64,000 bases of DNA from Acidimicrobiaceae bacterium (GCA_002717365.1 PBDJ01000034.1:33990-97989), one strand, 5' to 3'; positions 17,041 through 50,391 are shown, counted from the stretch's first letter. The notes: generated by a model from the letters alone, not told the origin. Translations and numbers: made by a program.

Positions 17041-17143
17041 CCACCTAATGAGTGCCGCGTGGGTCGGCTGCCTCAGCCGTCGGTGTGAGCCGGATCGGGA
17101 CTAGGTTCCGCTCCGGCAGACGAACAGATTCGGGAGCACAGAC

Positions 17144-17593
17144 ATGTTGGAAGTTGGAACACCAGCTCCGGACTTCGCAGTGCCCGACCAAGACGGCAAG
17201 GTGGTCACCATGGAATCTCTGCGGGGTCACTGGGTGGCCCTGTGGTGGTACCCGATGGCCTCCACCCCCGGTTGAACGGTCCAGGGAGGGGGGTTCCGTG
17301 ACCGAACCCCGGAGTTCGAGGAGGCTGGCGCCGTGGTGCTGGGTGCGAGTTTCGACACCGTCGATGCACAGAAGCACTTCGCCGACGACCAGGGGTTTCC
17401 GTATCGCCTGTTAGCCGACACCACTAAGGAGGTCGGGCAGGCCTATGAAGTGGAGGCCGAACACGGCTTACCGTTGCGGGTTACGTATCTGATCGACCCG
17501 GAGGGCACCATCGTCCGGACCTACGATCTACGTGGCGAGGATCTGGAGGCTCACGCTGGTGTCGTCTTGGACGACATTCGAACCCTGTCCTGA
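17144..17593 (+). CDS. bcp: Bcp-type peroxiredoxin with in-frame TGA (17273-17275) at the peroxidatic Cys position; candidate selenoprotein (U44)
   Basis: ATG 17144 is in frame with track ORF 17333-17593. Translation is MLEVGTPAPDFAVPDQDGKVVTMESLRGHWVALWWYPMASTPG-TGA-TVQGGGFRDRTPEFEEAGAVVLGASFD..., matching the Bcp pattern YP..TPG[C]T....FRD. A hairpin lies downstream of the TGA. Confidence 0.75.
17290..17310 (+). promoter_or_regulatory. SECIS-like hairpin downstream of the bcp UGA
   Basis: GGGGUUC-CGUGACC-GAACCCC is a perfect 7-bp stem starting 15 nt after the UGA, with a GU dinucleotide in the apical loop at +26/+27. Confidence 0.5.
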
Positions 17594-17615: not shown

Positions 17616-18830
17616 ATGGTGACCGCTCCATTGGCTGGGCTTACGGTGGTGGAGGGCACGGCATTTGTGGCCGCCCCCACCGGGGGGATGGCCCTCGCCC
17701 AGTTGGGGGCTGATGTCATCCGTTTCGACCAGGTGGGCGGCGGGATCGATTACACCCGCTGGCCTCTCACCGCTGACGGTGTGAGCCTGTACTGGAACGG
17801 CCTGAACCGCGGCAAGCGGTCGTTGGCTGTGGATCTACGCGACCCAGAGGTCACAGACCTCATAACTGAGCTAGTCGCCCGGACAGGAAACTTTCTGACC
17901 AACTTCCCGGCCCGAGGCTGGATGGCCTACGAGGAGTTACGGGCCCGCCGGGAGGATCTGGTGATGGTGGTCGTTACCGGATCACACGACGGGACGACGG
18001 CGTTGGACTACACCGTCAATTGTGCCGTGGGTTACCCGAACCTCACCGGCCACCCGGACGATTCCCGTCCGGTCAACAACGTGGTTCCGGCCTGGGACCT
18101 GGTGTGCGGCCAGATGGCGGCCCTCGGCCTGGTATCAGCCGATCGGCACCGCATGAGAACCGGCGAGGGCCAGGTAGTGACTATCGCTTTGGCCGACGTG
18201 GCCATGGCCGCTGTGGGGTCGCTCGGCAACCTGGCTGAGGTTCAGGTCAACGGCCGCGAGCGAGAGGGGGTGGGTAATGCCATCTACGGGGCGTTCGGCC
18301 GGGACTTTGCCACCGCCGACGGCCGCCGGATCATGGCGGTGGCCATTACGGCCCGACAGTGGACGGCTCTGCAGGAGGCGACTGGGACCACGAAGGCCAT
18401 AGCCGAATTAGCCGTCGAGTTGGGAGCGGACTTCGCCGATGAGGGAGCCCGGTTCCGGGCTACCGACCGCCTGTGTGAGGTTCTGGCACCATGGTTTGTT
18501 GCTCGAACCCTGAACGAGGCGTCCGTTGCTTTGGACGCCCACGGCGTCTGCTGGGGGCCTTATCGCACGGTCACCCAGATGCTGGCCGAGGACCCGCGAT
18601 GCTCGACGGCCAACCCGCTGTTTGCTGAGTTGGACCAGCCAGGTGTGGGTACCCACCTGGTACCGGGTTCTCCCCTGGCCTTCGGCGGACCGCAGACCGT
18701 GGACCGGGGAGCCTCCGTGGCCCCGGTCCTGGGGCAGCACACCGAGGAGATCCTTACCCTTGAACTCGGCCTGTCGGCGGTAGAGGTGGCACGTCTGGTC
18801 GATCGGGGGGCGGTCGCAATCGCTGGCTGA
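17616..18830 (+). CDS. family III CoA-transferase (CaiB/BaiF-like)
   Basis: PLAGLTVVEGTAFVAAPTGGMALAQLGADVIRFD is the typical N-terminus. GAGGAGGAG RBS just before ATG 17616. The track start at 17532 overlaps bcp. Confidence 0.85.
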   Translation: MVTAPLAGLTVVEGTAFVAAPTGGMALAQLGADVIRFDQVGGGIDYTRWPLTADGVSLYWNGLNRGKRSLAVDLRDPEVTDLITELVARTGNFLTNFPARGWMAYEELRARREDLVMVVVTGSHDGTTALDYTVNCAVGYPNLTGHPDDSRPVNNVVPAWDLVCGQMAALGLVSADRHRMRTGEGQVVTIALADVAMAAVGSLGNLAEVQVNGREREGVGNAIYGAFGRDFATADGRRIMAVAITARQWTALQEATGTTKAIAELAVELGADFADEGARFRATDRLCEVLAPWFVARTLNEASVALDAHGVCWGPYRTVTQMLAEDPRCSTANPLFAELDQPGVGTHLVPGSPLAFGGPQTVDRGASVAPVLGQHTEEILTLELGLSAVEVARLVDRGAVAIAG

Positions 18831-18848: not shown

Positions 18849-19901
18849 TCAGGCGCCCCAGGTCACCAACCGCCAGTCCAGGACGGGTCGGGGAGGGTCT
18901 TCGCCCTCTTGGGCGTCAGCTTCGACCCGGATGGCTCGGAGCCGTCCCCCGGCTGCCGACCGCTCGTCGAGCAGCGTGTGGTGAAAGCTCAGGACGTCCT
19001 TCTCGAAAACTGGCGCAAGATGGTCACAGGTCTGCCACCCGAGCACGGTGGCCGTGTCGGGAAACATGCGGGTTAGGGAGGCCTGGGCCAGACCGATGGT
19101 GTGGCCGCCGTAGACGAGGCGCCGGCCGTCCGGGCCGAGCGCCGGGTCACGGTGCACGGGTGCCTGGTTGAGGGTGAGGCGGGCTAGGGCTACGGCATTA
19201 GTTACCGTGTCTCTCAGACCGTCGGTCCGTTGGGTCCCGACGTTCCAGTCCGACACGGAGACACCGGCGAGGGGGCTGGCGTCCCAGCCGACAGGGACGC
19301 GGTCGACCCAGGCCGCTAGGTCGATTTCGGCCTCTATCTCTCCTAGGTCGTCGTGGTGGTCGGTGACGGCATCGGGATCCCGGAACCGGAGCATTGCGCA
19401 CCGTTCGTAGTCGGCCACCGTGGCGTTGTCGTCCACCCGAATCGTGTGGATGCCGAGCAGAGCGAGGCCCCGGGCTGGGCGGTCGTCGCGGCGTGACAAC
19501 TCGAGGAGACCCCGAATCTCAACGGTGGTTCGGAGGGTCTCACCGTGGCGGACCGGTTGGTGCAGGACCACGCCGCGGTAGAAAAGGTTGGCAAAGACCT
19601 GCCGAGTGGCGACCGTGCTCTGTCCGATTGACACATGGAGGACGAGAGCCGGGTTGACCAGAGAGCCGGGCTGGCCGGTCACCGCCTCGGCCAGAGGCCG
19701 GCTGGCAGTCGTGGCCAGCGGATCGCCGCAGATTGCCTGGTAGATAGCGGCTTCGCCGGGGCCAATGGTGACGGCCGGAGCGGGGTCCAGAGTCTGGCCA
19801 ACAGCCAGGTCGTCGAAGTAGGGCCCGAGGTCGTGGTGCTCGGGGGCGAGGGCGGGGGTGGGATCGGGCACTGCGACACTCTGGCAGCAACTAGCGGCCA
19901 T
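18849..19901 (-). CDS. MaoC-family double hot-dog (enoyl/methylfumaryl/itaconyl-CoA hydratase-like) protein
   Basis: 350 aa. The size and the two hot-dog-like halves (FANLFYRGVVLHQPVRHGETL; YGGHTIGLAQASL) resemble mesaconyl/itaconyl-CoA hydratase-type proteins. Convergent with a CoA-transferase. Confidence 0.7.
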   Translation of the reverse strand: MAASCCQSVAVPDPTPALAPEHHDLGPYFDDLAVGQTLDPAPAVTIGPGEAAIYQAICGDPLATTASRPLAEAVTGQPGSLVNPALVLHVSIGQSTVATRQVFANLFYRGVVLHQPVRHGETLRTTVEIRGLLELSRRDDRPARGLALLGIHTIRVDDNATVADYERCAMLRFRDPDAVTDHHDDLGEIEAEIDLAAWVDRVPVGWDASPLAGVSVSDWNVGTQRTDGLRDTVTNAVALARLTLNQAPVHRDPALGPDGRRLVYGGHTIGLAQASLTRMFPDTATVLGWQTCDHLAPVFEKDVLSFHHTLLDERSAAGGRLRAIRVEADAQEGEDPPRPVLDWRLVTWGA

Positions 19902-32235: not shown

Positions 32236-33171
32236 CTAGGACGGGTTCGGCAGACGAGTGACACCCAGGGCGAATTCGCCGGCCGCAGCGTAGAAGAGCC
32301 ACCGTTCCTCTCCATCGTCGAACACGAACGGATCCCGGAGTCCATTCTGGGGTTGGAAAGCTGGCCCCCGGACAGTTGGTTCCACCGGCCGGTCGGCGCC
32401 CTCCCAGGGTTCCACCGGGCGGAGAACCTCGACTGGGTCAGTCGGTGTCCAGGTTGTCCAGTCGCCCCGGAGATCGACCTGAGCCTCCAGGATCCGCTCC
32501 GGGGCGTCGCCAGCCCTCGTGAACCAGATCCGGAGGTGGTGCCCCTCGACCAGCACGCCACTGTGTCGGATCTCGGGGTCGTCGAACAAAGCTGGCCCGT
32601 ACTCGTAGCCCGTGACCCCGTCGGCCGACCGGACCAGCTGGGACGGCATGGACAGCCCGTACCACCATCCGTCCCAGGTGAAGCTCCGGTGGTAGGAGGG
32701 TGAGATGGCCGGCCCATCGGCCAATGGGGTGAACCGTCTCCCATCAGAGGAGGTGGCCACCAGGGTGTGCTGGTCGTAGACCGGATAGATGCCCCACGAC
32801 GGCAGGTGGCCCGCGGACTCTGGTGACGCGTGGCCGTGGAAGGTCATCCGGAGGGTGCGGCCGGCGTCGTCAACCTGCACGTCGGGCGACGCCACATGGC
32901 GGTTGGGGTGGTCGACGGGCAGGGCTGGCGCCGCGTCATCCATGTGGAGGACGTCGGTCGACACGAGGCGCCAAGGGCCAGTCGGGTGCTCGGCGGCGGC
33001 CAGTCGGATTGACGCCCCGCGGTGGTGGGCGAAGTAGAGGAGGTAGGTGCCCGGAGGATTGGGGAGCCAGGTCGGGCAGCGCAGCACCGACGGACCTTGC
33101 ACGTTGAAGTCACCATGCTCGGTCGGCACGCCTTCCAAGCCTGTGGGGACAACCACCTGTCGTTCGGTCAC
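32236..33171 (-). CDS. hypothetical protein; possibly a beta-propeller, glycoside-hydrolase-like fold (weak)
   Basis: GGAGG RBS 4 nt before GTG 33171. The upstream 237 codons of the 548-aa track ORF are antisense to the SDR at 33239-34021. No catalytic motif recognised. Confidence 0.45.
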   Translation of the reverse strand: MTERQVVVPTGLEGVPTEHGDFNVQGPSVLRCPTWLPNPPGTYLLYFAHHRGASIRLAAAEHPTGPWRLVSTDVLHMDDAAPALPVDHPNRHVASPDVQVDDAGRTLRMTFHGHASPESAGHLPSWGIYPVYDQHTLVATSSDGRRFTPLADGPAISPSYHRSFTWDGWWYGLSMPSQLVRSADGVTGYEYGPALFDDPEIRHSGVLVEGHHLRIWFTRAGDAPERILEAQVDLRGDWTTWTPTDPVEVLRPVEPWEGADRPVEPTVRGPAFQPQNGLRDPFVFDDGEERWLFYAAAGEFALGVTRLPNPS

Positions 33172-33238
33172 CGCGCCTCCCGGGCAGTGGGCAGGGACGG
33201 TGGGGAAGTACCGTCGGCCCGACCGTACGGGAGGGGGC

Positions 33239-34021
33239 ATGACCATGCTGGATCGAGATGGGGTTGCCGCGCTGTACGACCTGACCGGCCGGGTGGCCGT
33301 GGTGACGGGTGGCAGCCGAGGTATCGGTCGGGCGGTGGCTGAGGCCTTTGCCGCCCAGGGCGCCTCGGTGGTGGTGGCCAGCCGCAAGGCCGAGGCTTGC
33401 GACGAGGCAGTAGCCGCTATACGAGCCGTCGGTGGCGAGGCGCTCGCCGTACCGACCCATGTAGGCAACCTGGATGACCTGCAGCGTCTGGCTGATTCGG
33501 CGGCTAGCGAGTATGACGGCATCGACATCCTGATCAACAACGCCGCTAACCCGGTAGCCCAGCCCATTGGGGGGATCACGGCTGAGGCCTTTGCCAAGTC
33601 GTTTGAGGTGAACGTACGGGGGCCGCTTTTCTTGTTCCAGGCCTGCCTGCCCCACCTACTGACCTCCGACCACGCCTCGGTGGTGAACGTAATCTCGGCT
33701 GGGGCCTTCCTGAGTACTCCAGGAGTCTCGATGTACGGGGCCGGTAAGGCGGCCCTCCTGTCATTCACCCGGTCCATGGCCGCCGAGTACGCAACCCGGG
33801 GGATCCGGATCAACGCCTTGGCTCCCGGAGCTACCGACACCACCATGGTTCGCAACACCGGACCGGAGGCGTCGGCCTCCATGGCCCGGGCCAGCCACCT
33901 GAAGCGTCTCGCCGACCCGGACGAGATGGTGGGGGCAGTTCTCTACATGGCTTCGGACGCCGGGAGTTTTATGACCGGCCAGTGCCTTACTGTCGACGGA
34001 GGGATGGTCCCCGCCCGGTGA
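33239..34021 (+). CDS. SDR oxidoreductase
   Basis: VAVVTGGSRGIGRA, NNAA and YGAGKAA. GGGAGGGGG RBS before ATG 33239. Confidence 0.85.
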   Translation: MTMLDRDGVAALYDLTGRVAVVTGGSRGIGRAVAEAFAAQGASVVVASRKAEACDEAVAAIRAVGGEALAVPTHVGNLDDLQRLADSAASEYDGIDILINNAANPVAQPIGGITAEAFAKSFEVNVRGPLFLFQACLPHLLTSDHASVVNVISAGAFLSTPGVSMYGAGKAALLSFTRSMAAEYATRGIRINALAPGATDTTMVRNTGPEASASMARASHLKRLADPDEMVGAVLYMASDAGSFMTGQCLTVDGGMVPAR

Positions 34022-38705: not shown

Positions 38706-39444
38706 GGTCGGAGACCAGGCGGTCCAGCCGGGCCTCGTCGGTTACGTCGAGCGCAGCCACCGACCCGATCACCAGAACAGCGGGTGCGTCGATTGGTTGC
38801 CCGTCCAGGTCGGAGAGGGTGGCACGAAGGGTGTGCTGGGCCTGGGTGGTGGCCGACTGGATAGCGGCTACCGGGGTATCGGGGTCCATGCCGGCGGTCA
38901 GCAGCCGTTCGGCGATGGCCCCGGCACGCGAAGCCCCCATCAGAACGACCAGCGTGGTGCCCAGCCGGGCTAGGGCATCCCAGTCCAAATGGCGGGCCGC
39001 CGCGGGGTCCTCATGGCCAGTAACCACGGTGAACCCGCTGGCGTGGCCTCGCATGGTGACTGGGATGCCGGCAGCGGCCGGACCGGCGATCGCCGAAGTA
39101 ATGCCAGGGACGACGGCCACATCTACGCCGGCCTGTCGTAGGGCCCCGGCCTCCTCGCCGCCCCGTCCGAATACGAACGGGTCACCGCCCTTGAGGCGAA
39201 CCACGGTGTTGCTCCGGCGTGACGCCTTGACCAGTACCTCGTGGATGCGGGCCTGGGCGTCGGCCGGGCCGCCGGGACGCTTGCCCACGTCGATGACCTC
39301 GGCCCACGGGGCAACCAGGTCCAGGACCCGGGGATCCACCAGGCGGTCATGGACAACCACGTCGGCGGATTCCAGCAAGCGCAGGGCTCGGACGGTTAGC
39401 AACTCCGGATCGCCGGGGCCGGCGCCCACCAGGTAGACGGTCAT
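38677..39444 (-). CDS. cobA: uroporphyrinogen-III C-methyltransferase
   Basis: VYLVGAGPGDPELLTVRALRLLESADVVVHD and RLKGGDPFVFGRGGEE. ATGA overlap with the upstream gene. Confidence 0.9.
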   Translation of the reverse strand: MTVYLVGAGPGDPELLTVRALRLLESADVVVHDRLVDPRVLDLVAPWAEVIDVGKRPGGPADAQARIHEVLVKASRRSNTVVRLKGGDPFVFGRGGEEAGALRQAGVDVAVVPGITSAIAGPAAAGIPVTMRGHASGFTVVTGHEDPAAARHLDWDALARLGTTLVVLMGASRAGAIAERLLTAGMDPDTPVAAIQSATTQAQHTLRATLSDLDGQPIDAPAVLVIGSVAALDVTDEARLDRLVSDLALAEPSIR

Positions 39445-44743: not shown

Positions 44744-45910
44744 GTGGATCTCCGATTCAGCCCGTCCCAGGAGGCCTTCCGCGACGAGGTTCGCGGATGG
44801 CTGTCCGACAACCTCCCGGCCGAGCCGCTTCCTCCGATGGACACGCCGGAGGGCTTCGAACGGCACCGCCAGTGGGAGCGAGAACTGCACGAGGCCCGGT
44901 GGTCAGTGGTGGCCTGGCCCGAGGTCTACGGCGGCCGTGACGTCGGCCTGGTGGAGTGGCTGATCTTCGAGGAGGAGTACTACCGGTCAGGTGCTCCGGG
45001 CCGGGTCAACAACAACGGCATCTCGCTTCTCGGCCCAACCCTTTTTGCTTTCGGCACCGAGGTTCAGAAGAACCGCTTCTTGCCCCGCATGGCTTCCGGA
45101 GAAGAGATCTGGGCCCAGGGATGGTCAGAGCCCAACGCTGGTAGCGACCTGGCAGCCATCGCCACCAGGGGCGTCCGTGACGGCGAGTGGTTCGTTCTGG
45201 ATGGTCAGAAGACCTGGTGTTCTCGGGGAGCCTGGGCCGACTGGCTGTTCTGCATCGTCCGGACCGACCCGTCGGCCGAGCGCCACCGCGGCCTGTCATA
45301 CCTGCTGGTTCCGGCGGACTCCGAGGGCCTGGATCGTCGCCCGGTGGGTCGGCTCGACGGCGAGCCGGCATTCGCCGAACTGTTCTTCGACGGGTGTCGA
45401 GTTCACGAGTCCAACCTGCTGGGCGACGAGGGCGAGGGTTGGAACGTGGCCATGGCCACCACGTCTAGCGAGCGGGGCCTGAACCTGCGGGCTCCCGGAC
45501 GCTTCCTGGCCGCTGCCGACAATCTGGCCAACCTCTACCGGGAACTGGTAGAGGATGGCTCAACCAACTCCGACCTGGTTGACGAGGTGGTCCGGGCCTG
45601 GGTCGGAGCCCGGGCCTACCGGTGGCACACCTACGCCACGGCTGCTCGGCTGACCACCGGCGGCGACCTGGGATCAGCCTCCTCAATGATGAAGGTGTTC
45701 TGGTCGGAACTGGACGTTGAACTTCACGCCACGGCACTGCGCCTGCTTGGTGACCGGGCCGAACTGGTGGCCGGCGCCCCGGCCGCTGTGGACGGCGGTT
45801 CGTGGATGTCGGGCTACCTGTTCGCCCTGTCCGGTCCGATCTACGCCGGCACCAACGAGATCCAGCGCAACATCATCGCCGAGCGGGTGCTTGGCCTCCC
45901 CCGGAAGTGA
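44744..45910 (+). CDS. acyl-CoA dehydrogenase
   Basis: Full-length ACAD architecture, C-terminal GPIYAGTNEIQRNIIAERVLG. The MCAD-type YEG Glu position reads YAG. Confidence 0.9.
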   Translation: MDLRFSPSQEAFRDEVRGWLSDNLPAEPLPPMDTPEGFERHRQWERELHEARWSVVAWPEVYGGRDVGLVEWLIFEEEYYRSGAPGRVNNNGISLLGPTLFAFGTEVQKNRFLPRMASGEEIWAQGWSEPNAGSDLAAIATRGVRDGEWFVLDGQKTWCSRGAWADWLFCIVRTDPSAERHRGLSYLLVPADSEGLDRRPVGRLDGEPAFAELFFDGCRVHESNLLGDEGEGWNVAMATTSSERGLNLRAPGRFLAAADNLANLYRELVEDGSTNSDLVDEVVRAWVGARAYRWHTYATAARLTTGGDLGSASSMMKVFWSELDVELHATALRLLGDRAELVAGAPAAVDGGSWMSGYLFALSGPIYAGTNEIQRNIIAERVLGLPRK

Positions 45911-45921
45911 CAGGCCGGATC

Positions 45922-46950
45922 ATGGACGCCACCTTCTCCGACGACCAGCGCCTGTTCGCCGAGACCCTCCGCGGCATCTTGGACGGCACCTGCCCGCCAG
46001 AAGCCGTGCGGGCCTCCTGGGACGACCCTGTCGGTTGGGTCGACGGCCTGTGGGACACGTTGGCAGCGACCGGCGTACTGGGCCTCACAGCTCCCGGGTC
46101 GTGCGACGGGCTGGGCATGGATGAGGTCGACCTGGTCCTCCTACTGGAAGAACTGGGCCGTGCCGCCTGTCCAGAGCCGGTGGCCGAGCACGCAGCGGTT
46201 GCCGTTCCCCTCCTACGCGACCACGGTTCAGACAAGCTGGTCGAGGAGTGGCTTGGACGGGCGGCCACCGGCGACGCTGTCCTGACCGTTGCCTCGCCTG
46301 TCGACGAGCTTGTCCCGGCCGCCGCACAGGCCGACCTGATCCTGTTGGCCGCCGATGGTGCACTCCACGCCGTACCTGCCGACCGGCTGGCCTGCGTCGA
46401 ACAGGAGAGCGTGGACCGTTCCCGCCGCCTGGCCAGCGTGGACTGGATGCCGGCACCCGACACGCTGCTGTCCGACGATCCGGCAGTCGTCGACCGTTGC
46501 GTGGACCGCGGCGCCTGGGCGGCCGCCGCCCAGGCTGTCGGCGTGGCCCAGCGGCTCCTAGACCTGACCGTGTCCTACGTGGCTGACCGGGAGCAGTTCG
46601 GCAGGCCAGTAGGGGCCAACCAGGCCGTTAAGCACCACTGCGCCGACGTGGCCATCGCCCTGGAGTTCGCCCGGCCCCTCGTCCACCTGGCCGCCTGGTC
46701 GCTGGCCGCCGGGGAGAGCCCGGAGGAGGGCGGGTCGGTGGCCGTCGACGCGTCGATGGCCAAGGCCGCCGCCTCCGACGCCGTAGACCGGGCTTGTCGG
46801 TCAGCCCTCCAGTGCCACGGCGCCATCGGCTACACCATCGAGTACGACCTCCAACTGTGGCTGAAGCGGGGCTGGGTGCTGGCCGCCTCGTGGGGCGACG
46901 CCCGCTGGCACCGTCGTCGGATTGCCACCCGACTGGGCCTTTCCGCCTGA
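45922..46950 (+). CDS. acyl-CoA dehydrogenase family protein, short form (possible non-catalytic partner subunit)
   Basis: QCHGAIGYTIEYDLQLWLKR motif, but the protein ends about 25 aa later and lacks the terminal helix. ATG 45922 lies 12 nt after the preceding ACAD stop. Confidence 0.8.
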   Translation: MDATFSDDQRLFAETLRGILDGTCPPEAVRASWDDPVGWVDGLWDTLAATGVLGLTAPGSCDGLGMDEVDLVLLLEELGRAACPEPVAEHAAVAVPLLRDHGSDKLVEEWLGRAATGDAVLTVASPVDELVPAAAQADLILLAADGALHAVPADRLACVEQESVDRSRRLASVDWMPAPDTLLSDDPAVVDRCVDRGAWAAAAQAVGVAQRLLDLTVSYVADREQFGRPVGANQAVKHHCADVAIALEFARPLVHLAAWSLAAGESPEEGGSVAVDASMAKAAASDAVDRACRSALQCHGAIGYTIEYDLQLWLKRGWVLAASWGDARWHRRRIATRLGLSA

Positions 46951-49977: not shown

Positions 49978-50391
49978 GTGATCGTCGGCAACCCGGCAAA
50001 CCGGCTCGGGTGGTGGCGGACATCGGCTTGCGCCCTGCTTCTGGTTGTCGGGGTGGGTCCGGCATGCGGGTCGGAGCCGGTCACCGATCCGGTTCGCGCC
50101 ACGACGTGTGCCGAACTGGTGGACGCCGGTCGGGCCACTGCAGAGGAGGTCCTGGACCGGCTGGCCGACCGGACCCTGGTCGACCTGGAGGTCGAACACC
50201 CCGGCCGACCGTTCGCCGACCTGGACCCCGTGCTGCGCCGTGACGTCTTCGCCGCCCGGGCCGCCGACCTGGGCTGTGGGGAGACCGAGTTGGCCGATCT
50301 GGCCTGCACCGCTTTCCAGGGGCTGTCCCACCAAGCCCACGGCGACCTAGCTCGGGCCTACCTGACTCCCTATTTCACCGCCTGCGACTGA
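49978..50391 (+). CDS. hypothetical protein, possible lipoprotein
   Basis: N-terminal hydrophobic stretch ALLLVVGVGPACG with a lipobox-like Cys. No domain recognised. Confidence 0.45.
   Translation: MIVGNPANRLGWWRTSACALLLVVGVGPACGSEPVTDPVRATTCAELVDAGRATAEEVLDRLADRTLVDLEVEHPGRPFADLDPVLRRDVFAARAADLGCGETELADLACTAFQGLSHQAHGDLARAYLTPYFTACD

What the first reader, a model, noticed from the sequence alone, without database searches (positions are those of the whole stretch)
17144..17593. Bcp peroxiredoxin with UGA at the peroxidatic cysteine position: candidate selenoprotein missed by ORF calling
The ORF track shows only an 86-aa C-terminal fragment (17333-17593). Reading the same frame from ATG 17144 gives a complete 149-residue Bcp/AhpC-TSA fold interrupted by one TGA (17273-17275). 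That codon falls exactly where Bcp proteins carry the peroxidatic Cys: WWYPMASTPG-[TGA]-TVQGGGFRD against the canonical YP..TPGCT.E.C.FRD. The usual resolving-Cys position is Gly. A perfect 7-bp hairpin (17290-17310, loop CGUGACC) starts 15 nt after the UGA. This is the position and form expected for a bacterial SECIS. TGA is used as an ordinary stop by many neighbouring genes, so a reassigned genetic code is not the explanation. Sec-containing Prx-like proteins have been reported in metagenomic surveys. I believe selenoproteins beyond formate dehydrogenase are uncommon in Actinobacteria-type genomes, but I have not verified that.
Basis: partly seen in the sequence, partly recalled or inferred. 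Interest (0 to 1): 0.75.

Follow-up and report, generated by a model that had tools for sequence, protein, structure and literature searches.

The report
Selenocysteine peroxiredoxin missed by ORF calling
A small antioxidant enzyme gene (Bcp/PrxQ-type peroxiredoxin) of an uncultured marine Acidimicrobiales bacterium almost certainly uses an in-frame UGA plus a downstream RNA hairpin to place selenocysteine at its catalytic site; the call looks right, but this selenoprotein family has been known from ocean metagenomes since 2005.

Summary
Window 17144-17593 (+) is one 149-codon AhpC-TSA/Bcp reading frame with a single TGA (17273-17275) at the peroxidatic TPG[C]T position. A perfect 7-bp hairpin follows at 17290-17310.

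The selenoprotein reading is supported:
- The TGA is present in all 17 syntenic orthologues from Acidimicrobiales MAG species, and in 80 of the 80 best metagenome relatives (46-88% identity). None has another disruption.
- dN/dS is 0.13-0.31 on both sides of the TGA.
- The hairpin meets all four criteria of the published bacterial SECIS model. Its stem codons are frozen at synonymous sites, and it shows compensatory changes (U-A/U-G/C-G; G-C/A-U).
- Older Cys-form relatives have lost the hairpin. Recent TGC variants still carry it.
- The gene is split identically (43 + 86 aa) in many independent assemblies, so it is not a sequencing error.
- TGA ends 40 of 62 ORFs in the window, so the genetic code is standard.

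Not shown: selA, selB, selC and selD were not found in the window or in 940 kb of related DNA. Cultured members of the order (Ilumatobacter, Microthrix) do have them.

This is the known "Prx, TxxU" marine selenoprotein family. It is a correct find of modest novelty.

The parts
17144..17593 (+). Complete coding sequence of a Sec-containing Bcp/PrxQ-type peroxiredoxin: 149 residues (148 standard residues plus Sec44), with stop TGA at 17591-17593.
   Evidence: Translation. Pfam AhpC-TSA E=6e-35. Best solved relatives are Xanthomonas PrxQ/BCP at E~1e-21. An AlphaFold model of the 85%-identical natural Cys variant P0001 has pLDDT 96.9 and matches BCP/PrxQ/AhpE structures at TM 0.88-0.93. Syntenic orthologues are intact in 17 MAG species.
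17273..17275 (+). In-frame UGA read as selenocysteine (residue 44), in the P37-x-x-x-T41-x-x-U44 peroxidatic motif.
   Evidence: It aligns to the invariant peroxidatic Cys. TGA is present at this codon in 18 of 18 genome loci and 80 of 80 metagenome loci. Natural TGC variants exist in a sister species.
17290..17310 (+). Bacterial SECIS upper stem-loop. The 5' arm is 17290-17296 (GGGGUUC), the apical loop is 17297-17303 (CGUGACC, with G17298-U17299), and the 3' arm is 17304-17310 (GAACCCC). It is encoded within codons G49-P56.
   Evidence: It meets the four bSECIS model criteria: 7-nt loop, 7-bp stem, G at loop position 2 followed by U, 21-nt spacing, and -12.1 kcal/mol. Stem codons are frozen at synonymous sites. 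On 81 distinct sequences, 88.9% of cells are paired, there are 28 double-change cells against 9.2 in shuffles, and 0 of 500 shuffles reach the observed score. The hairpin is lost in the older Cys forms L114, L115 and L117.
17132..17136 (+). Shine-Dalgarno-like GGGAG, 7 nt upstream of ATG 17144.
   Evidence: Read directly from the sequence. Its function is inferred only.
17477..17479 (+). Codon of the conserved catalytic Arg112 (in LPLRVTYLIDPEG).
   Evidence: Invariant column R112 in the 39-sequence alignment. Its role is inferred from established peroxiredoxin active-site knowledge.

Best explanation
The locus encodes one polypeptide, a Bcp/PrxQ-type thiol peroxidase in which selenocysteine replaces the peroxidatic cysteine.

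Decoding (inferred from the established bacterial Sec pathway): during translation, the mRNA hairpin 14 nt downstream of UGA-44 acts as a bacterial SECIS. SelB, loaded with GTP and Sec-tRNA(Sec), binds its apical loop (C-G-U-G-A...) and delivers Sec to the UGA in competition with release factor 2. Ribosomes that lose this competition release a 43-residue peptide.

Catalysis (inferred): the selenolate of Sec44 is activated by Thr41 and Arg112 and reduces H2O2 or an organic hydroperoxide, forming a selenenic acid. The protein has no cysteine, and both known resolving-Cys positions are Gly or Ala. It must therefore work by a 1-Cys-type (here 1-Sec) mechanism, in which an external thiol reductant regenerates the enzyme. 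A thioredoxin- or mycoredoxin-like partner is possible; its identity is unknown.

Shown here:
- the intact frame and the family assignment;
- the U/C alignment at the peroxidatic position;
- conservation of the UGA across about 100 relatives;
- purifying selection on both sides of the UGA;
- a conserved, covarying hairpin that fits the SECIS model.

Inferred, not shown: actual Sec insertion, peroxidase activity and the identity of the reductant.
For: 1. Frame and family.
2. The UGA is conserved in 17 syntenic orthologues from different Acidimicrobiales MAG species (62-98% aa identity), in one 43%-identity relative (L018), and in 80 of 80 best metagenome relatives with no other stops. The synteny aldehyde dehydrogenase / this gene / CoA-transferase III / MaoC-like / WhiB is conserved.
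3. Median dN/dS is 0.135 for codons 1-43, 0.31 for codons 45-63 (between the UGA and the first possible restart codon) and 0.21 for the remainder. dS is 0.5-0.9.
4. The same 43+86-aa split appears in contigs from many independent assemblies, including Tara Oceans: 23 contigs were read and the index lists 36 blocks.
5. The bSECIS criteria are met.
6. Stem codons are fixed at synonymous sites: GGG 17/18, TTC 18/18, CGT 18/18, CGA 18/18, ACC 12/12. The loop codon GAY varies.
7. Compensatory changes occur in the stem: pair 22-34 is UA 39 / UG 20 / CG 17, pair 21-35 is GC 65 / AU 3, and pair 18-38 is GC 55 / AU 6 / UA 2. Some cost an amino-acid change (Thr to Ile or Ala, Phe to Leu).
8. Control: the older Cys forms L114, L115 and L117 lack this hairpin, and two of them (L114, L117) also use CGC or CGG instead of CGU for Arg52. 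The recently converted Cys forms L033 and L116 retain it.
9. Sec/Cys pairs exist within one species-level population at 96-98% nucleotide identity.
10. The code is standard: TGA ends 40 of 62 ORFs.
11. Cultured members of the order have SelD, SelA and SelB and 7-15 selenoproteins. Actinomarina, in the same class, has selA/B/C/D in all 84 complete genomes (preprint).
12. The family is described: Prx with TxxU, COG1225/pfam00578, with 43 genes in the Sargasso Sea and 253 in GOS. Relative L089 is on an AACY02 contig; I take that prefix to be the Sargasso Sea project (own knowledge; the paper cites AACY01 accessions).
Against: - No selA, selB, selD or tRNA-Sec was found in the 64-kb window or in about 940 kb of related loci. 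The same-genome requirement is therefore untested.
- The hairpin's stability is unremarkable for 67% GC DNA (z=0.38). A similar hairpin follows 1.6% of TGA triplets by chance.
- Covariation counts are inflated by shared ancestry, and only three of the seven stem pairs show double changes.
- A minority of family members (the GHGFR group and the soil group) use a differently registered hairpin, so the single structure drawn here is not universal.
- Rfam gives no hit. This is expected, because it has no general bacterial SECIS model.
- There are no experimental data.
Confidence: 0.92

Rival explanations
1. Pseudogene: a Bcp gene inactivated by a nonsense mutation at the active-site codon.
For: Gene callers report only fragments.
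Against: The same TGA occurs in 17 orthologous species loci and in 80 of 80 metagenome relatives, with no second stop or frameshift. dN/dS is 0.13-0.31 on both sides. The gene's divergence matches that of its neighbours.
Confidence: 0.01
2. Sequencing or assembly error: the true codon is TGC or TGT.
For: Three TGC-form proteins exist in a sister species (P0001, P0121, P0123).
Against: The window's exact 86-aa fragment, always preceded by the 43-aa ORF, is found on contigs from many independent assemblies. All GTDB species representatives and all JGI/ENA metagenome contigs retrieved carry TGA.
Confidence: 0.005
3. UGA is read through without selenium. Near-cognate Trp or Cys tRNA, or Cys-tRNA(Sec), would decode it, with the hairpin acting as a generic read-through stimulator. 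The product would be a Cys, Trp or otherwise substituted peroxiredoxin.
For: The Sec machinery was not seen in the DNA available. Within-species TGA/TGC exchange shows that Cys is tolerated at the site.
Against: TGA is the main stop codon here. The loop keeps the SelB-type G-U (C25, G26 and G28 invariant, U27 at least 90%) across 81 sequences. The geometry fits bSECIS. Cultured members of the order have a complete Sec trait and rich selenoproteomes. A catalytic-site Trp would kill the enzyme, yet the gene is under purifying selection.
Confidence: 0.04
4. Two separate small genes: a 43-aa peptide, and an 86-aa protein starting at GTG 17333.
For: This is how automated annotation reads it.
Against: The 19 codons between the TGA and GTG 17333 are in frame, conserved and match the Prx family (TVQGGGFRDRTPEFEEAGA). 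Neither piece would contain a complete thioredoxin fold or the catalytic residue, whereas the full-length model folds at pLDDT 96.9. The GTG is not conserved as a start: relatives are called from different positions.
Confidence: 0.01

Closest known systems
Sec-containing peroxiredoxin 'Prx' family of marine metagenomes (COG1225/pfam00578, TxxU motif; Zhang, Fomenko & Gladyshev 2005, PMC1088965; Zhang & Gladyshev 2008, PMC2398784)
   Same: Same Pfam/COG assignment. Same T-x-x-U motif with Sec at the peroxidatic position. Same bacterial-type SECIS just downstream, and the same marine habitat. Relative L089 (about 50% identity, TGA at the same codon) is on an AACY02 contig; I take that prefix to be the Sargasso Sea project.
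   Different: Those surveys treated anonymous reads. Here the gene is placed in a syntenic chromosomal locus of Acidimicrobiales MAG species. I could not check that the individual published sequences are the same orthologue group.
PrxU of Eubacterium acidaminophilum (Sohling et al. 2001; NCBIfam NF040737), the experimentally verified Sec-peroxiredoxin
   Same: A peroxiredoxin with Sec at the peroxidatic position.
   Different: It belongs to a different Prx subfamily. The window protein scores 51.7 bits against a cutoff of 270. PrxU is a protein of about 233 residues from a strict anaerobe. This one has 149 residues, is of the Bcp/PrxQ type and comes from oxic seawater.
Xanthomonas campestris PrxQ/BCP (PDB 3GKK, 5IIZ and others) and E. 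coli Bcp
   Same: These are the best sequence and structure matches (E~1e-21; TM 0.88-0.91). The P-x-x-x-T-x-x-C motif and the catalytic Arg are shared.
   Different: They use Cys48 plus a resolving Cys (Cys84, or CP+5). Here the peroxidatic residue is Sec and both resolving positions are non-Cys. The score of 89.5 bits is below the NCBIfam Bcp equivalog cutoff of 140.
Mycobacterium tuberculosis AhpE (1-Cys peroxiredoxin, PDB 1XXU, 4X0X)
   Same: An actinobacterial peroxiredoxin of about 153 residues with no resolving Cys. The structural match is TM 0.92-0.93. It is the closest mechanistic analogue for a single-chalcogen cycle that needs an external reductant.
   Different: It uses Cys rather than Sec and is only about 30% identical. 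Its known reductant system (mycothiol/mycoredoxin, from my own knowledge) has not been shown to exist in these organisms.
E. coli fdhF SECIS (the paradigm bacterial SECIS)
   Same: A hairpin within the coding region immediately 3' of the UGA, with G-U in a small apical loop. It fits the consensus model quoted in PMC13188914.
   Different: There is no sequence similarity. From my memory of the E. coli numbering (G23/U24), the loop G-U here is about 3 nt further from the UGA. No bulged U is evident. SelB binding was not tested.

Membership tests
Peroxiredoxin, AhpC-TSA family (PF00578), Bcp/PrxQ subfamily | Profile-HMM match above the curated threshold over the full domain | tested here: met
   PF00578 scores 120.3 bits against a cutoff of 26, covering profile positions 1-122 of 124.
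Peroxiredoxin, AhpC-TSA family (PF00578), Bcp/PrxQ subfamily | P-x-x-x-T/S-x-x-C(U) active-site motif and the conserved catalytic Arg | tested here: met
   P37, T41 and U44 are present, and R112 is invariant in 39 sequences.
Peroxiredoxin, AhpC-TSA family (PF00578), Bcp/PrxQ subfamily | Thioredoxin fold with the peroxidatic residue in the first turn of helix alpha2; the closest structures are BCP/PrxQ | tested here: met
The model has pLDDT 96.9 and a helix at 42-53. Top Foldseek hits are BCP, PrxQ, BcpB and AhpE at TM 0.88-0.93.
Peroxiredoxin, AhpC-TSA family (PF00578), Bcp/PrxQ subfamily | Equivalog-level identity with E. coli Bcp (NCBIfam PRK09437) or Deinococcus-type PrxQ (NF053650) | tested here: not met
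   Scores are 89.5 bits against a cutoff of 140, and 80.6 against 260. These are the best matches but are below the equivalog cutoffs, so this is a distinct clade within the subfamily.
Peroxiredoxin, AhpC-TSA family (PF00578), Bcp/PrxQ subfamily | Peroxidase activity | not testable with these tools
   This needs an enzyme assay.
Bacterial selenoprotein (SelB/SECIS-dependent UGA decoding) | In-frame UGA aligned with a conserved, redox-active Cys of homologues (Sec/Cys pair) | tested here: met
.
Bacterial selenoprotein (SelB/SECIS-dependent UGA decoding) | UGA conserved in orthologues, with coding constraint on both sides | tested here: met
   18 of 18 genome loci and 80 of 80 metagenome loci carry it. 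dN/dS is 0.135, 0.31 and 0.21 across the three segments.
Bacterial selenoprotein (SelB/SECIS-dependent UGA decoding) | bSECIS consensus model: 3-9 nt loop, 4-16 bp stem, G in the first two loop positions, 16-37 nt from the UGA to the loop, MFE no higher than -7.5 kcal/mol | tested here: met
   Observed values are a 7-nt loop CGUGACC, a 7-bp stem, 21-nt spacing and -12.1 kcal/mol. The criteria are taken from PMC13188914.
Bacterial selenoprotein (SelB/SECIS-dependent UGA decoding) | Evolutionary support for the hairpin beyond what the coding sequence requires | tested here: met
   Synonymous sites are frozen in the stem. There are 28 double-change cells against 9.2+-5.5 in shuffles, and 0 of 500 shuffles reach the observed score. 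The hairpin is lost in older Cys forms. Caveat: the sequences are phylogenetically non-independent.
Bacterial selenoprotein (SelB/SECIS-dependent UGA decoding) | selA, selB, selC (tRNA-Sec) and selD in the same genome | not testable with these tools
   They are absent from the window and from 940 kb of related loci, and the rest of the genome is not available. Indirect support: cultured Acidimicrobiales have them.
Bacterial selenoprotein (SelB/SECIS-dependent UGA decoding) | Selenium physically present in the protein | not testable with these tools
   This needs 75Se labelling or mass spectrometry.
PrxU (NF040737, E. acidaminophilum-type Sec-peroxiredoxin) | Equivalog HMM score above the cutoff | tested here: not met
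   51.7 bits against a cutoff of 270. It works like PrxU but is not a member.
Prx-like thiol:disulfide oxidoreductase selenoproteins (UxxC) | U-x-x-C redox motif | tested here: not met
   The motif here is T-P-G-U-T-V-Q, with no Cys anywhere in the protein.

The most novel reading that the evidence does not exclude
Beyond being another Sec-Prx, this clade could be a natural test case in abundant aerobic marine Actinomycetota.

- It is a cysteine-free '1-Sec' peroxiredoxin.
- Its catalytic codon is polymorphic (UGA/UGC) within a single species-level population, with the SECIS still intact in the Cys allele. That would allow a direct natural comparison of Sec and Cys fitness, for example under selenium limitation.
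- Its SECIS visibly dictates protein sequence. The coupled Phe51/Leu and Thr55/Ala/Ile substitutions in the GGFRDRTP motif track RNA base pairs.

It may also point to a Sec trait across marine Acidimicrobiales that current MAG annotation largely misses.
Probability: 0.35. Interest if true: 0.4.

Novelty: new member of a known kind. Interest (0 to 1): 0.25.

Why it matters
- Annotation: this gene is split into a 43-aa ORF and an 86-aa ORF in every public assembly examined. An antioxidant enzyme of a widespread marine Acidimicrobiales group is therefore missing from gene catalogues, and the group's selenium dependence goes unrecorded.
- Biology: it adds a well-anchored, syntenic, single-copy example of a Sec-Bcp. 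The locus offers about 100 sequence variants of one SECIS and natural Sec/Cys alleles, which is useful material for SECIS modelling and for asking when Sec pays off.
- Limits: it does not change the understanding of selenoproteins. Both the family and the mechanism are established.

Tried and rejected
- Rfam scans of the window and of six related loci gave no hit. This is uninformative, because Rfam has no general bacterial SECIS model.
- tRNA scans of the window and of all loci found no tRNA-Sec. The 98-nt 'tRNA-Ile' in L002 has no Rfam tRNA match and, from its offset, lies over the whiB gene on the opposite strand, so I judge it a false positive.
- Pfam annotation of 30 further window ORFs found no SelA, SelB or SelD.
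- A search for a second in-frame-TGA gene in the window by codon-position GC signal recovered only this gene plus antisense or gene-end artefacts.
- Thermodynamic significance of the hairpin was rejected as evidence (z=0.38).
The natural Cys variant P0001 was used instead.
- An NJ tree of Sec and Cys forms suggests a largely Sec clade with a few nested Cys forms. It has no support values, so it is used only qualitatively.
- I could not link any sel gene to the same MAGs. The single genome-contig scan and the single metagenome-contig scan were both spent on the peroxiredoxin itself.

Full report
**Observation**

The window sequence at 17144-17593 (+) translates as MLEVGTPAPDFAVPDQDGKVVTMESLRGHWVALWWYPMASTPG*TVQGGGFRDRTPEF...DDIRTLS*. 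The only internal stop is TGA at 17273-17275.

The mechanical ORF list shows just the two pieces: 17144-17275 (43 aa) and 17333-17593 (86 aa, starting at GTG).

With Cys substituted at the stop, the 149-residue protein matches Pfam AhpC-TSA at E=6e-35 over essentially the whole profile. Its best solved relatives are Xanthomonas PrxQ/BCP structures (E~1e-21). In those alignments the TGA falls on the peroxidatic Cys48, and the resolving Cys84 position is Ala. CP+5 is Gly, and there is no Cys anywhere in the protein.

The hairpin GGGGUUC-CGUGACC-GAACCCC is at 17290-17310 as described. TGA terminates 40 of 62 GC3-supported ORFs in the window, which is 67% GC, so the genetic code is standard.

**Is it more than chance?**

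For this one sequence, only weakly. The folding energy of the 63 nt after the UGA is ordinary for such GC-rich DNA (z=0.38). In the window, 1.6% of all TGA triplets are followed by a perfect hairpin of at least 7 bp with SECIS-like geometry. The case rests on comparison with relatives.

**Relatives**

A protein search returned many close relatives (66-97% identity) that are called only as C-terminal fragments of 85-87 aa. It also returned one full-length 150-aa Cys form, P0001.

A scan of one genome per GTDB species found 17 loci in marine Acidimicrobiales/Microtrichales MAGs (62-98% aa identity) and a more distant one (43%). All have TGA at the same codon and an otherwise intact frame. These are true orthologues. 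The order aldehyde dehydrogenase / this gene / family-III CoA-transferase / MaoC-like protein / WhiB is kept, and neighbour identities are similar to that of the peroxiredoxin itself.

The window's own 86-aa fragment occurs on contigs from many independent assemblies, including Tara Oceans. It is always preceded by the 43-aa ORF. That excludes a sequencing error.

A metagenome scan returned 494 relatives. All 80 of the best ones (46-88% identity; marine, sediment, freshwater and soil) carry TGA at this codon and no other stop.

**Selection**

Across 17 species, median Nei-Gojobori dN/dS values are as follows:

| Region | Median dN/dS | Median dS |
|---|---|---|
| Codons 1-43 (before the TGA) | 0.135 | 0.79 |
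| Codons 45-63 (TGA to the first possible restart codon) | 0.31 | 0.49 |
| Codons 64 to end | 0.21 | 0.94 |

The region between the TGA and the GTG is conserved as protein and matches the family consensus. Ribosomes must therefore read through the UGA. This excludes both the pseudogene and the two-gene readings.

**The RNA element**

The review PMC13188914 quotes the consensus bacterial SECIS model.

| Criterion | Model | Observed here |
|---|---|---|
| Apical loop | 3-9 nt | 7 nt (CGUGACC) |
| Upper stem | 4-16 bp | 7 bp |
| G in the first two loop positions, usually followed by G or U | required | G at position 2, followed by U |
| Spacing from UGA to loop | 16-37 nt | 21 nt |
| Minimum free energy | no higher than -7.5 kcal/mol | -12.1 kcal/mol |

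In the 18 genome sequences the stem codons are fixed at synonymous sites: GGG 17/18, TTC 18/18, CGT 18/18, CGA 18/18 and ACC 12/12. The two Arg codons used are CGT and CGA, out of six possible. The loop codon GAY varies freely, and flanking codons show normal synonymous diversity.

On 81 distinct UGA+50-nt sequences, the 7-bp helix is paired in 88.9% of cells. It has 28 double-change cells against 9.2+-5.5 in column shuffles, and 0 of 500 shuffles reach the observed covariation score. All slid registers score lower. The pair types are:
- pair 22-34: UA 39, UG 20, CG 17;
- pair 21-35: GC 65, AU 3;
- pair 18-38: GC 55, AU 6, UA 2.

Several of these changes cost an amino-acid substitution (Phe to Leu, Thr to Ala or Ile). 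RNA pairing is thus visibly shaping the GGFRDRTP peptide.

Loop bases C25, G26 and G28 are invariant, and U27 is at least 90% conserved. Two minority groups keep a hairpin in a different register: a soil group with GGGCCUG-CGUGA-CAGGUCC, and a GHGFR group with GUCACGG-GUU-CCGUGAU.

As a control, I examined the DNA of four older Cys-form homologues. Three of them (L114, L115, L117) have lost this hairpin, and two of those (L114, L117) use CGC or CGG for the same Arg. The fourth (L116) groups with the soil Sec forms and keeps a fossil hairpin.

The caveat is that the sequences are related by descent, so shuffle statistics overstate significance.

**Sec/Cys pairs**

P0001, P0121 and P0123 are full-length TGC forms from the species represented by L003, L037 and L038. 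The TGC contig L033 is 96-98% identical in nucleotides to those TGA contigs and retains the SECIS unchanged. Exchangeability of UGA and UGC at a catalytic residue is the classic signature of a selenoprotein.

**Structure**

It has pLDDT 96.9 and pTM 0.91, with residue 44 in the first turn of helix 42-53. Foldseek places it with E. coli BCP, Xanthomonas PrxQ, M. tuberculosis BcpB and the 1-Cys peroxiredoxin AhpE, at TM 0.88-0.93.

**What could not be shown**

No tRNA-Sec, SelA, SelB or SelD is encoded in the window.

Indirect support comes from the literature:
- Peng et al. 2016, Tables S1 and S2, list SelD, SelA and SelB as present. They count 15, 10 and 7 known selenoproteins for Ilumatobacter coccineus, I. 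nonamiensis and Ca. Microthrix parvicella. Acidimicrobium ferrooxidans has none. All belong to the order Acidimicrobiales.
- A 2026 preprint reports selA/B/C/D in all 84 complete Actinomarina genomes; Actinomarina is in the same class.

**Mechanism**

SelB-dependent recoding of UGA-44 is directed by the in-frame SECIS. The product is a Bcp/PrxQ-type peroxidase whose selenolate is activated by Thr41 and Arg112.

Because there is no resolving Cys, the selenenic acid intermediate must be reduced by an external thiol partner. This is a 1-Sec analogue of the 1-Cys cycle of AhpE.

The gene has its own Shine-Dalgarno-like GGGAG (17132-17136). It ends 22 nt before the CoA-transferase start, so co-transcription with that gene is possible but untested. 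The simple promoter and terminator scan found nothing relevant.

**Comparison with known families**

This is the 'Prx' selenoprotein family with COG1225/pfam00578 and the TxxU motif. It has 43 genes in the Sargasso Sea survey, where it is the second most abundant family, and 253 genes in GOS. Relative L089 is on an AACY02 contig; I take that prefix to be the Sargasso Sea project.

It is not a member of the experimentally verified PrxU equivalog (51.7 bits against a cutoff of 270). It is not an equivalog of E. coli Bcp either (89.5 against 140). Nor is it one of the UxxC 'Prx-like' selenoproteins.

**Verdict**

The kind of thing is well known. The value lies mainly in correcting the annotation and in providing a clean comparative data set. 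Interest is 0.25, and the novelty class is a new member of a known kind.

Noticed in passing
L033:459-911 (TGC) compared with L003:5717-6166, L037 and L038 (TGA): There is a Sec/Cys polymorphism within one species-level population. Three distinct full-length Cys-form proteins (P0001, P0121, P0123) exist. The Cys-form contig L033 is 96-98% nucleotide-identical to Sec-form contigs and still carries the intact SECIS hairpin.
   Followed up: partly
A3 alignment columns 16-40 (window 17288-17312 and the equivalent positions in L034-L113): The same gene family uses three SECIS architectures: a 7-bp stem with CGUGAYC loop (the majority), GGGCCUG-CGUGA-CAGGUCC (a soil group), and GUCACGG-GUU-CCGUGAU (the GHGFR group). 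The amino-acid pairs Phe51/Leu and Thr55/Ala/Ile co-vary because of RNA base pairing.
   Followed up: partly
L116:601-1065 (P0008, NCBI MAG GCA_030043315.1): This Cys-form homologue still carries a 7-bp soil-type SECIS-like hairpin after its TGC, apparently a fossil of a Sec-to-Cys conversion. Three other Cys forms (L114, L115, L117) have lost it.
   Followed up: partly
window 17616-18830 (+) and 18849-19901 (-): The gene immediately downstream is a family-III CoA-transferase. Its best match is 2-methylfumaryl-CoA isomerase TIGR04253, at 503 bits against a cutoff of 725. It is followed by a 350-aa protein with only a weak RipB/Ich enoyl-CoA hydratase match. The pair is syntenic with the Sec-peroxiredoxin in 17 MAG species and may form a C5-dicarboxylate (mesaconate or itaconate-type) CoA module. 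No functional link to the peroxiredoxin is evident.
   Followed up: no
window 32239-33882 (-), 38819-39433 (+), 45876-46463 (-), 49978-50388 (+): These are four high-GC3 ORFs (548, 205, 196 and 137 aa) with no Pfam match at E<=1e-5.
   Followed up: no
L024:10001-10454, and protein P0035: L024 (a soil 'Actinomycetes' MAG) has the TGA and the SECIS, but the frame breaks about 20 codons later. The NCBI-annotated P0035 (137 aa, 'hypothetical protein', Acidimicrobiaceae MAG) reads through the region in shifted frames. These are most likely indel errors in the assemblies, but they could be decayed copies.
   Followed up: no
L002:13302-13399 (-): ARAGORN calls a 98-nt 'tRNA-Ile(gat)'. From its offset it lies over the whiB gene on the opposite strand, and Rfam finds no tRNA there. 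I judge it a false positive, not a tRNA-Sec.
   Followed up: yes
window 1-64000: The rest of the window is ordinary housekeeping and lipid or CoA metabolism: PknB-like kinase, gatA/gatB, ilvD, ilvBNC, thiolase, many SDRs, P450, sulfite reductase plus sirohaem synthase, leuA and a beta-propeller protein. There are no mobile-element or selenium-related genes. Public gene calls split the peroxiredoxin into 43-aa and 86-aa ORFs in all six assembly loci examined (L027-L032).
   Followed up: partly
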